From positions 1 through 19,967 of the forward strand of contig JAUVGT010000027.1 of assembly GCA_030593645.1 (NCBI GenBank): DNA of 19,967 bases. Direction: 5' to 3'. The first letter of the stretch is position 1; the number at the start of each line of letters is the position of its first letter. This stretch comes from Deltaproteobacteria bacterium. GTDB taxonomy: Bacteria; Desulfobacterota; Desulfobacteria; Desulfobacterales; JAUVGT01. Below the pieces are notes generated by a model. It searched no databases. It saw nothing but the letters and a program-made list of their open reading frames with translations, and had not been told where the DNA came from. A program made the translations under genes and the position numbers. Below, piece by piece: positions 16,899-17,750 of the stretch.

Positions 16899-17000
16899 TT
16901 TCTCCTTTCAAAAAGTGCTTTCAAACCTCCTCTCGGATTCAATTTCTGTGTTGGAGTAAAGATTTTAATCCTCGAAATATTTAATATATTCCTGCGGTTA

Positions 17001-17042
17001 AAATCTTCACTCCGCTTTGAACTTGGACCCGAGTGAAGATTT
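17001..17042. other. 12-bp perfect hairpin (aaatcttcactc / gagtgaagattt, 18-nt loop) in the 5' leader of the SPFH-rtcAB transcript.
   Basis: 17001-17012 and 17031-17042 are exact reverse complements. Confidence 0.4.
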
Positions 17043-17407
17043 GAAAACACTTTTACCATTTTAAATCATTTCATACGCCGGGTTAGAACCGGGTCTAAAC
17101 CGTTGGGAAGCAAGCTGTGATTTAGCCACACTGAACATGCGGAGTGCCGCTTAAGTCTCCAATTTATTCCAGGCTGATCAGTCTTTTGTGTAAACAGTTA
17201 AAGGCGCAATCCAAAAGGATTCGGTCTTATACTGTGTCACACTCATACTGATTGCCCGGTTTTACCGGAAACGGTATCCGCGCGCTGCATGGCATGTGAA
17301 CAGTGCTGTTTTTAGAAACATCAGCCGATTTCAAGGACCTACGGAAAAGCGGTAAAAATACCACCCATTTCCTTCATGTATCCCGGCATCAACTCATCGC
17401 TTAATAA

Positions 17408-17433
17408 AAACCGGCCATATCACGGTTTACTTC
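17408..17433 (-). terminator. Weak terminator-like hairpin followed by a U-tract on the minus strand (AAACCG-9nt-CGGTTTTTATT), downstream of the tRNA-like element. Possible attenuator.
   Basis: Stem 17408-17413 / 17423-17428. The minus-strand transcript reads ...aaaccgtgatatggccggtttttatt. Confidence 0.25.
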
Positions 17434-17501
17434 CCTCAGGCCTTGCGTTGTGATCGTTTTCAGCGATCCGATCATTTTTAATGATCTAAGGGGTTGAAAA
17501 C

Positions 17502-17576
17502 CCTGTGGCGCAGGACTCGAACCTGCAACTCCCGTATTCCAGGTACGGTGCTCTACCCATTGAGCTAACCTTGGCC
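17502..17576 (-). ncRNA. tRNA-like element. D-arm, anticodon arm (UGG anticodon with C33) and a canonical T-arm (GGTTCGAGTCC) are present, but the acceptor strands do not pair and no CCA is encoded. Either a degenerate tRNA-Pro pseudogene or a tRNA-mimic (Y-RNA-like) module.
   Basis: The minus strand reads CCAAGGT-TA-GCTC-AATGGGTA-GAGC-A-CCGTA-CCTGGAA-TACGG-GAGTT-GCAGG-TTCGAGT-CCTGC-GCCACAG. Only 3 of 7 acceptor positions pair. It lies inside the sigma54-driven leader. Confidence 0.5.
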
Positions 17577-17608
17577 TGACACCTGACCTTCGTCAGAATC
17601 CATGTTCG

Positions 17609-17689
17609 GGACACACCGCATAGACAGAATGATTGTTAGAAGTGGTTTCAGAACCACTTCCATGTATTCATTTCTGAATGCGGTGTGCC
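17609..17689 (-). ncRNA. Long imperfect hairpin of ~80 nt with three stacked stems (10 bp, 8 bp with a bulge, 9 bp). It lies just downstream of the sigma54 transcription start and 5' of the tRNA-like element.
   Basis: cacaccgcat (17612-17621) pairs with atgcggtgtg (17678-17687). cagaatga pairs with tcatttctg. gaagtggtt-tcag-aaccacttc (17638-17659). Confidence 0.45.
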
Positions 17690-17750
17690 GCTGGCCCGGC
17701 GGTATCAGCAATTAAAAGATCGATTGTCATTCGATTTGATTGGGTAATAT

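What the first reader, a model, noticed from the sequence alone, without database searches (positions are those of the whole stretch)
16899..17750. Unusually long (~840 nt), highly structured untranslated leader between the sigma54 promoter and the first ORF, with a terminator-like hairpin at 17408-17433
The six-frame track shows no ORF of 60 aa or more in this interval. The interval carries the long hairpin, the tRNA-like element, two small hairpins (gggtt-gaa-aaccc and gatcatt-ttt-aatgatc), a weak hairpin plus U-tract, and a 12-bp perfect hairpin at 17001-17042. This suggests a separately terminated or processed ncRNA, with regulated read-through into SPFH-rtcAB (attenuation). Alternatively the ncRNA is excised from the operon precursor, as Y RNAs are.
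Basis: inference. Interest (0 to 1): 0.55.

Follow-up and report, generated by a model that had tools for sequence, protein, structure and literature searches.

The report
Large tRNA-like RNA before SPFH gene

Summary
An exact sigma-54 promoter (17766-17751, minus strand) is followed by ~840 nt with no ORF of 60 aa or more, and the interval folds far better than shuffles (z = -9.3).

The interval is not a simple leader. Window 17707-17099 (minus strand) is one member of a conserved RNA found directly upstream of the SPFH/Band-7 gene in 123 of 134 related loci. It has three parts: a 5' domain, a cloverleaf with only a 3-bp acceptor and a variable "anticodon", and a 3' domain closed by a 300-nt-range helix.

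On a sequence-only alignment of 64 members, 86% of cells pair (32-43% with slid partners), 93 of 123 pairs show compensatory changes, and no shuffle in 500 reaches the observed values.

The proposed terminator (17408-17433) folds no better than chance. Its 5' arm and its U-run both belong to covarying long-range helices.

The tRNA-like core matches the "b7a-tRNA" predicted in 2016 and not validated as of 2018. The flanking domains match no Rfam family.

I think it most likely is a stable RNA partner of the SPFH protein, analogous to a Y RNA with Ro. That function is inferred, not shown.

The parts
17751..17766 (-). Sigma-54 promoter TGGCACatgcgTTGCT. The transcription start is inferred at about 17740.
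   Evidence: It is the only exact match in the window. The same motif sits at the equivalent position in L001, L081, L162, L164 and L165. RtcR (Pfam RtcR + Sigma54_activat) is encoded divergently at 18022-19644.
17577..17707 (-). 5' domain. P1 is 17707-17701 / 17583-17577. P2a is CCA/UGG, 17694-92 / 17602-00. P2b is CGG/CCG, 17690-88 / 17609-07. The conserved unpaired stretches are UCCCGAACA and AUUCUGAC.
   Evidence: RNAalifold. Per-helix counts. Tool count on A2, helices 1, 4 and 5: 84-98% paired, with 6/6 and 11/17 pairs changed on both sides. Local fold z = -6.6. The apical ~20 nt are absent from close relatives.
17506..17570 (-). tRNA-like core. Acceptor, 3 bp only: 17570-68 / 17509-07. 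D arm: 17565-62 / 17553-50. 'Anticodon' arm: 17548-44 / 17536-32, loop CCUGGAA. T arm: 17526-22 / 17514-10.
   Evidence: Rfam tRNA 44.4 bits with acceptor positions 4-7 deleted. ARAGORN calls none. Relatives match model positions ~4-67 only. Helices 6-9 are 96-100% paired, and the anticodon stem covaries at 5/5 pairs. The acceptor cannot be extended, U33 is present in 26/64, and there are 47 distinct loops in 64 members.
17452..17503 (-). Linker hairpins. 17503-17491 (GGGUU/AACCC) is conserved in position and variable in sequence. 17486-17470 (GAUCAUU/AAUGAUC) is window-specific. 17468-17452 (GAUCG/CGAUC, loop CUGAAAA) is conserved in the clade.
   Evidence: Anchored comparison of all loci. 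Close-relative alignment. Local fold.
17099..17441 (-). 3' domain. Closing helix: GCC/GGU, 17441-39 / 17101-099, a conserved 3x3 internal loop (UGA/AAC), then 17435-17413 / 17127-17105. Branch 1: 17411-17404 (GUUUUUAU) / 17315-17308 (CUAAAAAC), enclosing a variable region. Branch 2, a long irregular arm: 17306-02 / 17132-28, 17296-92 / 17140-36, 17288-80 / 17150-42, 17272-65 / 17162-55 and distal helices. The conserved blocks are GCCAUGCAGCGCGCGGAUACCG and CUUAAGCGGCACUCCGCA.
   Evidence: Covariation scan. RNAalifold and per-helix statistics. Tool count, helices 11-19: 83-98% paired, nearly every pair changed on both sides. The single-sequence MFE recovers the long-range helix. Compensatory changes appear within the close clade.
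17408..17433 (-). It is not an independent element. It spans parts of the 5' strands of the closing helix and of branch 1.
16911..17054 (-). A ~145-nt near-perfect hairpin inserted between the RNA's 3' end and the SPFH Shine-Dalgarno (GGAG 16905-16902).
   Evidence: -76.4 kcal/mol, z = -8.1. No other copy in the window or in any relative. Absent from L001, L081, L162, L164 and L165.
15783..16898 (-). Gene for the SPFH/Band-7 (stomatin-like) protein, the partner gene that co-occurs with the RNA.
   Evidence: Pfam Band_7, 2.9e-35. Stomatin-like over residues 152-356. No hydrophobic segment. The RNA lies directly upstream in 123/134 loci.

Best explanation
The interval encodes a large structured non-coding RNA. 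Its core is window 17707-17099 on the minus strand, ~610 nt here and ~520-570 nt in relatives. It is the RNA companion of the soluble stomatin-like SPFH/Band-7 protein encoded immediately downstream.

Shown:
- The RNA is a conserved family with three covariation-supported domains: a 5' domain, a tRNA-body mimic, and a 3' domain closed by a ~300-nt-range helix.
- It is tightly and specifically linked to the SPFH gene across phyla, whether or not rtcAB or rtcR are adjacent.
- It does not encode a conserved peptide.
- It has no conserved terminator or Shine-Dalgarno-sequestering element.

Inferred:
- In this genome RtcR and sigma-54 transcribe it as the first ~840 nt of the SPFH-rtcA-rtcB transcript when tRNA damage is sensed.
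- In Planctomycetota it is made as the 3' extension of long tRNA-array transcripts.
- It is then released or persists as a stable RNA and assembles with the SPFH oligomer.
- The tRNA-like domain keeps the elbow and anticodon arm but lacks a usable acceptor end, so RNase P, RNase Z and aminoacylation should ignore it. It would present a tRNA shape that recruits or occupies tRNA-directed repair enzymes (RtcB, RlaP, CCA-adding enzyme) or nucleases. This parallels the way Y RNAs tether Ro60 to effectors.
For: Family and structure:
- blastn of the leader hits ~45 of the first 80 loci at the tRNA-like segment.
- Conserved blocks span the entire spacer.
- RNAalifold gives a coherent three-domain structure.
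- On a sequence-only MAFFT alignment of 64 members, 86.2% of cells pair against 32-43% for slid partners. 93 of 123 pairs change on both sides. There are 796 double-change cells against 288 +/- 16 in shuffles, and 0/500 shuffles reach the observed value on any of the five measures.
- The window's RNA folds with z = -9.3.

Linkage:
- A profile of the RNA finds a near-full-length hit on the same strand directly upstream of SPFH in 123/134 loci with enough sequence, plus 3 further away. The median gap is 55 nt.
- RtcR was detected in only 5/80 genome loci, and RtcA/RtcB in 4/80 and 8/80.

Not coding:
- No region is open in all six AT-rich relatives beyond 54 alignment columns.
- Gap lengths are mostly not multiples of 3, 102 against 23.

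tRNA mimicry without tRNA function.

Partner protein: stomatin-like with no membrane segment. Solved stomatins are 16-mer or larger assemblies.

A 3' boundary: the 10 nt after the closing helix are 42% U against 18% overall.

Literature: the Band-7-associated tRNA-like RNA was predicted and proposed to be functionally redundant with YrlA. [quoted passage not shown]
Against: - There are no expression data. A discrete stable RNA species, its ends, and any binding to the SPFH protein are all unobserved.
- The RNA always lies 5' of the SPFH operon on the same strand, which is also what a cis-acting leader would look like.
- In the window itself the sequence after the closing helix is not U-rich (UUAGACCCGG).
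- No terminal helix joining the 5' and 3' ends is supported family-wide.
- The primary 2016 paper could not be read, so its exact model could not be compared.
Confidence: 0.6

Rival explanations
1. It is a cis-acting regulatory leader, like a riboswitch or T-box. The large RNA would sense a ligand, an uncharged or damaged tRNA, or a protein, and control transcription elongation or translation of SPFH-rtcAB in cis.
For: It is always upstream of the SPFH operon on the same strand, at a median of 55 nt. It lies inside the 5' UTR defined by the sigma-54 promoter. The U-rich stretch after the closing helix could be a structure-dependent leaky terminator.
Against: No conserved expression platform exists. 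The spacer between the RNA and the Shine-Dalgarno is variable in length and sequence, and tolerates a 145-nt insertion here. In L008 and L074 another gene (rtcB) lies between the RNA and SPFH, and in L022, L050 and L051 the RNA is 2.3-4.2 kb away. In Planctomycetota it follows tRNA genes by 0-66 nt, as if it were part of the tRNA transcript. It matches no riboswitch or T-box model in Rfam. At ~550 nt it is far larger than known leaders.
Confidence: 0.2
2. It is a decoy or sensor for anticodon nucleases. The tRNA-like domain would be cut in its anticodon loop by the same stress- or toxin-induced tRNases that damage tRNAs. That would either soak up the nuclease or produce a 5' fragment ending in cyclic phosphate that feeds back on the RtcR CARF domain, until RtcB reseals it.
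For: RtcR binds 5' tRNA halves ending in 2',3'-cyclic phosphate. The mimic keeps a covarying anticodon stem and a 7-nt loop. A 'sponge' role for array tRNAs has been proposed.
Against: The loop sequence is almost free, with 47 variants in 64 members and U33 in only 26. Known anticodon nucleases are sequence-specific. Most carriers have no RtcR nearby. This idea does not explain the two large conserved flanking domains or the link to SPFH.
Confidence: 0.1
3. The hairpin at 17408-17433 would be an intrinsic terminator or attenuator that ends a ~330-nt ncRNA, with regulated read-through into SPFH-rtcAB.
For: AAACCG/CGGUUU can pair and is followed by U5. GGUUUU is conserved in the five closest relatives.
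Against: The scan calls no terminator on this strand. The local fold has z = -0.35, and its MFE does not use that stem. 17435-17413 pairs with 17127-17105, and 17411-17404 pairs with 17315-17308. Both pairings show compensatory changes, some of them inside the close clade, such as GUCAG/CUGAU in L165 and AUCCG/CGGAU in L081. GC-rich relatives have no U-run at this position. Conservation continues for 300 nt beyond it.
Confidence: 0.03
4. It is a processing ('punctuation') signal. The tRNA-like element would exist only so that RNase P or RNase Z cut the polycistronic transcript there.
For: It sits at the junction between tRNA arrays and an mRNA. M. smegmatis YrlA is cut by RNase P.
Against: The acceptor is 3 bp and cannot be extended. 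Chen et al. report that YrlAs without a 7-bp acceptor stem are not cleaved by RNase P. This idea does not explain ~450 nt of additional conserved structure.
Confidence: 0.05
5. It is a decayed tRNA gene plus chance hairpins, or an unannotated small ORF.
For: ARAGORN sometimes calls the element as an odd tRNA. GC-rich members have long stop-free stretches.
Against: The element is conserved and covaries across several phyla. The same truncated acceptor is seen everywhere. There is no shared open frame, and the indels break frames.
Confidence: 0.01

Closest known systems
b7a-tRNA (band 7-associated tRNA), predicted by Burroughs & Aravind 2016 and described in Wang et al. 2018 (bioRxiv 10.1101/312249)
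   Same: It is a predicted ncRNA that strongly resembles a tRNA. It is encoded next to a Band-7/SPFH-domain protein and, in this window, next to RtcB. It was proposed as a cofactor in RNA repair. This is almost certainly the same element as the core at 17570-17506.
   Different: The secondary source describes it simply as a tRNA-like molecule. Here the tRNA-like part is only ~65 nt of a ~520-610-nt conserved RNA with two further covarying domains. Its acceptor is 3 bp and its anticodon is unconstrained. Most carriers found here have no rtcB within 5 kb, and many have a tRNA array upstream. I could not read the primary paper, so I do not know how much of this it already contains.
YrlA / bacterial Y RNAs of rsr-yrlBA-rtcBA operons (Chen et al. 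2014, PMC4201824; Hughes et al. 2020, PMC7790460)
   Same: Both are non-coding RNAs embedded in an RtcR/sigma-54-controlled RNA-repair operon. Both have a tRNA-mimicking domain that keeps the D/T-arm tertiary nucleotides but has no aminoacylatable end. Each is paired with a ring- or cage-forming protein encoded next to it.
   Different: There is no Ro60/TROVE gene. The GNCGAAN0-1G motif is not conserved. The arm order is the normal tRNA order (D, anticodon, T), whereas YrlA has T, a closed acceptor-like stem-loop, then D. This RNA is several times the length the YrlA paper reports for a processed species (82 nt). Rfam gives no Y-RNA hit.
Large 'ornate' bacterial ncRNAs that often neighbour tRNA genes (GOLLD, ROOL, OLE, HEARO, raiA). 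This comparison rests on my own knowledge.
   Same: It is >500 nt, has many covarying helices and conserved internal loops, has no known function, and in many genomes sits next to tRNA genes.
   Different: It matches none of their Rfam models. It contains a complete tRNA-body mimic. It is tied to one particular protein gene.
tmRNA and viral 3' tRNA-like structures
   Same: A tRNA-like module is built into a larger RNA.
   Different: Those mimic the acceptor/T arm and are aminoacylated. This one keeps the D, anticodon and T arms and lacks the acceptor end. The matches to Tymo_tRNA-like and tmRNA fall far below their gathering scores.
[quoted passage not shown] 2021, PMC8421152)
   Same: Same-strand arrays of tens of tRNA genes lie upstream of the RNA in many Planctomycetota and Acidobacteriota loci. 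In cyanobacteria such arrays are co-regulated with rtcB under translational stress.
   Different: That paper does not mention an SPFH gene or a tRNA-like RNA at the end of the arrays. The window itself has no array.

Membership tests
b7a-tRNA (Band-7-associated tRNA-like RNA) | Encoded adjacent to a Band-7/SPFH-domain protein gene | tested here: met
   Band_7 domain protein at 16898-15783. The RNA lies directly upstream in 123/134 relatives.
b7a-tRNA (Band-7-associated tRNA-like RNA) | Located in an RtcB RNA-ligase neighbourhood | tested here: met
   RtcA and RtcB follow SPFH in the window. This does not hold for most Planctomycetota relatives within 5 kb.
b7a-tRNA (Band-7-associated tRNA-like RNA) | Strongly resembles an authentic tRNA | tested here: met
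   Rfam tRNA 44.4 bits. The D/T arm and elbow nucleotides are nearly invariant.
b7a-tRNA (Band-7-associated tRNA-like RNA) | Match to the published alignment or model of b7a-tRNA | not testable with these tools
   The primary paper is not held. Rfam has no such family among the hits.
Functional tRNA gene | 7-bp acceptor stem with a free 3' end | tested here: not met
   Only 3 bp pair. The next four flanking positions pair at 47, 39, 20 and 31%. ARAGORN finds no tRNA in the window. Relatives match tRNA model positions ~4-67 only.
Functional tRNA gene | U33 and an anticodon conserved among orthologues | tested here: not met
   U33 in 26/64, and 47 distinct loops among 64 members. ARAGORN assigns more than 30 different anticodons.
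YrlA / bacterial Y RNA | Within 4 kb of a Ro60 (TROVE) gene on the same strand | tested here: not met
   No TROVE domain in any major ORF of the 20-kb window.
YrlA / bacterial Y RNA | Conserved GNCGAAN0-1G motif near the 5' end (Ro60-binding strand) | tested here: not met
   The window has GACGAAGG at 17594, but only 9/64 family members have the motif in their first 150 nt.
YrlA / bacterial Y RNA | Arm order T stem-loop, closed acceptor-like stem-loop, D stem-loop | tested here: not met
   The order here is D arm, anticodon arm, T arm, with an open 3-bp acceptor.
Intrinsic terminator / attenuator at 17408-17433 | Stable G+C-rich hairpin immediately followed by a U-tract | tested here: not met
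   No minus-strand site in the scan. Local fold z = -0.35.
Intrinsic terminator / attenuator at 17408-17433 | Hairpin conserved in relatives | tested here: not met
   Both arms and the U-run pair with distant partners and show compensatory changes (helices 13-15).
Riboswitch / T-box-type leader | Conserved expression platform (terminator or SD-sequestering helix) next to the sensing domain | tested here: inconclusive
   The spacer to the Shine-Dalgarno is variable in length and sequence. A U-rich stretch follows the closing helix in 41/63 members. There are no Rfam riboswitch or T-box hits.
Known large ncRNAs (GOLLD, ROOL, OLE, HEARO, raiA and all other Rfam 15 families) | Covariance-model match | tested here: not met
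   Only RF00005 reaches its gathering score in the window and in 12 relatives. Permissive scans of the window region and of L003 give nothing credible.

The most novel reading that the evidence does not exclude
The b7a-tRNA is only the middle third of a previously undescribed class of >500-nt bacterial structured RNA. This RNA would assemble with a soluble, cage-forming stomatin-like protein into a ribonucleoprotein, a bacterial counterpart of Ro/Y-RNA or vault particles. The particle would act on damaged or surplus tRNAs. It would be made either on demand from an RtcR/sigma-54 promoter or as the last product of long tRNA-array transcripts.
Probability: 0.35. Interest if true: 0.8.

Novelty: new variant of a known kind. 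Interest (0 to 1): 0.66.

Why it matters
Very few bacterial RNAs above 500 nt with strongly supported structure are known, and each has opened a line of work. This one has several useful properties:
- It has an obvious protein partner, a membrane-less stomatin-like protein.
- It contains a built-in tRNA mimic.
- It appears in two genomic settings that both point to tRNA damage control: RtcR/RtcB repair operons and long tRNA arrays.
- It occurs in cultured Planctomycetota (Lacipirellula, Adhaeretor, Rhodopirellula, Aeoliella, Bremerella), so the 2016 prediction, unvalidated as of 2018, can be tested directly.

It also bears on two open questions: what bacterial SPFH proteins without membrane anchors do, and how RNA-repair enzymes find their substrates.

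For annotation, it explains many "odd tRNAs" with erratic anticodons that tRNA finders call upstream of SPFH genes.

Tried and rejected
1. A helix joining the RNA's two ends (CGCCGGG 17701-17695 with CCCGGCG 17082-17076). It is 7 bp in the window and its five close relatives, and the single-sequence MFE uses it. Family-wide, the best complement between the two segments is no longer than with shuffled tails or permuted partners: 5.16 against 5.01 +/- 0.12 and 5.06 +/- 0.12. It would also cross P1. I kept it only as a clade-specific possibility.
2. GUGUG-rich blocks gave many apparent pairings in the first covariation scan. I accepted only those that RNAalifold placed in a nested structure and that beat slid controls.
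3. Small-ORF explanation: rejected.
4. The 145-nt hairpin as a repeat or MITE: no second copy in the window or in any of 165 loci. The rest of the genome could not be searched.
5. YrlA or Y-RNA membership: rejected on three defining features.
6. Known Rfam families for the non-tRNA domains: none.
7. Phage association: two conserved blocks were searched in IMG/VR. One gave nothing. The other gave a single 94-kb contig with the usual array-RNA-SPFH layout.
8. The primary 2016 paper could not be fetched by DOI, PMC id or PubMed id.
9. The source organism was not identified. The only other record of the SPFH protein is a 1.2-kb Logan contig.
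Full report
LAYOUT. The transcript runs on the minus strand. rtcR (Pfam RtcR + Sigma54_activat) is on the plus strand at 18022-19644. Divergent from it are an exact sigma-54 promoter TGGCACatgcgTTGCT at 17766-17751 (the only exact match in the window), then ~840 nt without any ORF of 60 aa or more. After that come SPFH/Band-7 (16898-15783), RtcA, RtcB, a 161-aa unknown protein, ArfB and a 110-aa unknown protein. The plus strand upstream carries a CCA-adding/poly(A)-polymerase-family enzyme, two RlaP 'RNA repair pathway' nucleotidyltransferases and a GNAT. 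The window is an RNA-repair island. It contains no Ro60/TROVE gene.

CHECK OF THE OBSERVATION.
- The tRNA-like element is on the minus strand at 17570-17506 (Rfam tRNA 44.4 bits, with only three acceptor pairs). ARAGORN finds no tRNA.
- The long hairpin (17700-17600) has z = -6.6.
- The 3' ~145-nt hairpin that contains the 12-bp hairpin has z = -8.1.
- The whole RNA has z = -9.3.

The 'terminator-like hairpin' at 17408-17433 fails every test I could run. The terminator scan reports nothing on the minus strand. The region folds no better than shuffles (z = -0.35), and its optimal fold does not use the proposed stem.

WHAT IT IS. I fetched 80 loci from species-representative genomes and 80 from metagenomes through the SPFH protein, plus four contigs of closer relatives.
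- blastn showed that the tRNA-like segment is conserved upstream of SPFH in Desulfobacterota, Planctomycetota, Acidobacteriota and other phyla.
- Anchored comparisons then showed that the conservation covers essentially the whole spacer as a series of blocks:
  - GAUACCG-CCGGGCCAGCGGCGCA
  - GUGUGUUCCGnnCAUGGGUUCUGAC
  - the cloverleaf
  - GCCCGAGGGAGGCGG
  - GCCAUGYAGYGCGYGGAUACCGC
  - GCUCAARCGRCACUCCGCA...GUGUGAUCG...UCCGCCGCCCAACGGC
- A profile built from the alignment finds a near-full-length copy on the same strand directly upstream of SPFH in 123 of 134 loci with at least 800 nt of upstream sequence, and in three more at 2.3-4.2 kb. The median gap to the SPFH start is 55 nt.
- RtcR, RtcA and RtcB were detected within the fetched flanks in only 5, 4 and 8 of the 80 genome loci. 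The constant partnership is RNA plus SPFH, not RNA plus rtc.

STRUCTURE. RNAalifold on a block-aware alignment of 68 non-redundant members gives three domains. The window coordinates are listed under 'parts'. I transferred these pairs, through the window row, to an independent sequence-only MAFFT alignment of 64 members made by the alignment tool (A2). The pair-counting tool then gave:
- 86.2% of cells paired, against 32-43% with partners slid by 1-3 columns;
- 93 of 123 pairs with changes on both sides;
- 796 double-change cells, against 288 +/- 16 in shuffles;
- a covariation score of 0.323 against 0.167;
- 0 of 500 shuffles reaching the observed value on any measure.

The slid control keeps phylogeny, and the alignment was not fitted to the structure. 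I therefore regard the fold as established at the level of secondary structure. The distal part of the long 3' arm (helices 22-26) is poorly aligned and less certain.

THE 'TERMINATOR'. Nucleotides 17435-17413 (GGGAAGUAAACCGUGAUAUGGCC) are the 5' strand of the helix that closes the 3' domain. They pair with 17127-17105, about 300 nt downstream. That is 16 of 19 contiguous pairs for 17431-17413 with 17127-17109 in the window, and 85-91% paired in the family, with 17 of 18 pairs changed on both sides (helices 13-14).

The U-run that follows (GUUUUUAU, 17411-17404) is the 5' strand of the next helix, with CUAAAAAC at 17315-17308 (83% paired, 7 of 8 pairs compensatory). Among the five closest relatives this helix is extended by different complementary sequences: GUCAG/CUGAU in L165 and AUCCG/CGGAU in L081. 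GC-rich relatives have no U-run there.

The single-sequence MFE of the window's RNA recovers these long-range helices on its own. A weak co-transcriptional pause or stop before the 3' partners are made cannot be excluded from sequence alone, but nothing supports it.

THE tRNA-LIKE CORE.
- The D arm, T arm and the nucleotides that make the tRNA elbow are nearly invariant (UAGCUCA..GG..AGAGC and GGUUCGAnUCC).
- The anticodon stem covaries at all five pairs.
- The acceptor is 3 bp in every lineage. Rfam aligns only model positions ~4-67, and the next four flanking positions pair at chance level.
- U33 is present in 26 of 64 members, and 47 different loops occur among the 64.
- ARAGORN calls the element in 70 of 138 loci and gives it more than 30 'anticodons'.

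It is therefore a mimic of the tRNA body that cannot decode and offers no end for RNase P, RNase Z, CCA addition or aminoacylation. Chen et al. note that YrlAs without a 7-bp acceptor stem are not cut by RNase P.

WINDOW-SPECIFIC FEATURES. Alignment with L001, L081, L162, L164 and L165 (74-77% SPFH identity, all with the same sigma-54 promoter) shows three insertions private to this genome:
- the apical ~20 nt of the long hairpin;
- the hairpin GAUCAUUAAAAAUGAUC (17486-17470);
- the ~145-nt hairpin 17054-16911, which sits between the RNA's 3' end and the Shine-Dalgarno sequence.

These account for most of the 'unusual' length. Relatives have 780-840 nt between rtcR and SPFH, against 1123 nt here.

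ALTERNATIVES TESTED.
- Coding: there is no shared open frame, and the indels break frames.
- Known RNA families: only tRNA, in gathering and permissive scans of the window and relatives.
- YrlA: it fails on the Ro60 neighbour, the 5' motif and the arm order.
- A 5'-3' terminal helix: not supported family-wide.

CONTEXT ELSEWHERE. Of 96 loci with enough upstream sequence, 57 have a same-strand tRNA gene (41 of them tRNA-Cys GCA) ending within 150 nt of the RNA. 29 have ten or more same-strand tRNAs within 3 kb, and none has an opposite-strand tRNA there. Long tRNA arrays are known in these phyla and are co-regulated with rtcB in Anabaena, but the paper describing them mentions neither SPFH nor a tRNA-like RNA. 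Downstream of SPFH, L021 carries two RlaP genes.

HOW IT PROBABLY WORKS. Shown: a conserved, structured, non-coding RNA that is genetically coupled to a stomatin-like protein. That protein has no membrane segment and has an extra ~150-aa N-terminal domain. Its solved relatives form assemblies of 16 or more subunits.

Inferred: the RNA is produced with the operon. Here that happens from the RtcR/sigma-54 promoter, which by analogy with Salmonella fires when tRNA halves with cyclic-phosphate ends accumulate. In Planctomycetota it would be the tail of tRNA-array transcripts. It would persist as an RNA bound by the SPFH oligomer and use its tRNA-shaped domain to engage tRNA-directed enzymes. The U-rich stretch after the closing helix (42% U against 18% overall) may mark its 3' end.

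This is the Ro60/Y-RNA logic, and it is what Burroughs & Aravind proposed for b7a-tRNA according to Wang et al.. A cis-regulatory role is the main rival and cannot be excluded without expression data.

NOVELTY. The tRNA-like core next to Band-7 and RtcB was predicted in 2016 and, as of 2018, had not been validated. I found no later work on it. Against the accessible literature and Rfam 15, the following appear new:
- the core is embedded in a ~520-610-nt three-domain RNA with strong covariation;
- the acceptor is truncated everywhere and the anticodon is free;
- the RNA tracks SPFH rather than rtcB;
- it often terminates long tRNA arrays.

I could not read the primary paper, so part of this may already be in it. 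I therefore class the finding as a new variant of a known kind and score interest at 0.66.

Noticed in passing
L003, L007, L010, L011, L017, L019-L021, L027, L038, L041, L043, L070 and others (upstream of the SPFH match): Long same-strand tRNA gene arrays, up to at least 36 tRNAs in 5 kb, end 0-66 nt before the RNA that precedes SPFH. The last gene is usually tRNA-Cys(GCA). 29 of 96 loci have ten or more tRNAs within 3 kb, and none has an opposite-strand tRNA. The published description of 'L-arrays' does not mention SPFH or this RNA.
   Followed up: partly
window 16911-17054 (minus strand): A ~145-nt near-perfect hairpin (z = -8.1) is inserted between the RNA's 3' end and the SPFH Shine-Dalgarno. 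It is absent from all relatives and has no second copy in the window. It contains mutually exclusive pairings (17043-17032 or 16968-16955 with 17013-17001). It could be a MITE-like insertion or an RNase III site.
   Followed up: partly
window 6920-12721: The RNA-repair island extends further: a CCA-adding/poly(A)-polymerase-family enzyme with an HD domain (6920-8260, +), two RlaP genes (8321-9298 and 9360-10145, +), GNAT+YoaP (10368-11117, +), and on the minus strand ArfB (11758-12183) flanked by unknown 110-aa and 161-aa ORFs.
   Followed up: partly
window 12236-12721 (minus strand); L014, L019, L030: The 161-aa protein of unknown family in the window's operon has 35-37% tblastn matches. They lie 1-2.3 kb upstream of SPFH, among or near the tRNA arrays, in three Planctomycetota-type loci.
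   Followed up: no
window 17770-18020; L001, L081, L162, L164, L165: AT-rich blocks are conserved between rtcR and the sigma-54 promoter in close relatives (for example TTTATAAnATnTTATA and GTCAAG). They are candidate RtcR enhancer or IHF sites. The window has ~110 extra nt here.
   Followed up: no
L041, L070, L071, L076: These are variant RNAs in which a second T-arm-containing unit lies ~74 nt upstream of the tRNA-like core, and the profile hit is split in two.
   Followed up: no
L008, L074; L022, L050, L051: Gene order varies. rtcB lies between the RNA and SPFH in two loci. In three others the RNA is 2.3-4.2 kb upstream of SPFH.
   Followed up: no
L166 (IMGVR_UViG_3300007072_000340, 94 kb): This is the only viral-collection contig that matches a conserved RNA block. 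It has the full tRNA array - RNA - SPFH arrangement. It may be a provirus or a misclassified bacterial fragment.
   Followed up: partly
window 15783-16898 (minus strand): The SPFH protein is stomatin-like over residues 152-356 and has no hydrophobic segment (maximum Kyte-Doolittle 1.02). It carries a ~150-aa N-terminal domain that repeats a YFKD...G.G..[WF] motif also found at the start of the SPFH domain. The database copy starts at the second ATG (370 aa).
   Followed up: partly
window 17452-17468 (plus strand): The only terminator-like site the scan reports in the region is on the plus strand.
   Followed up: yes
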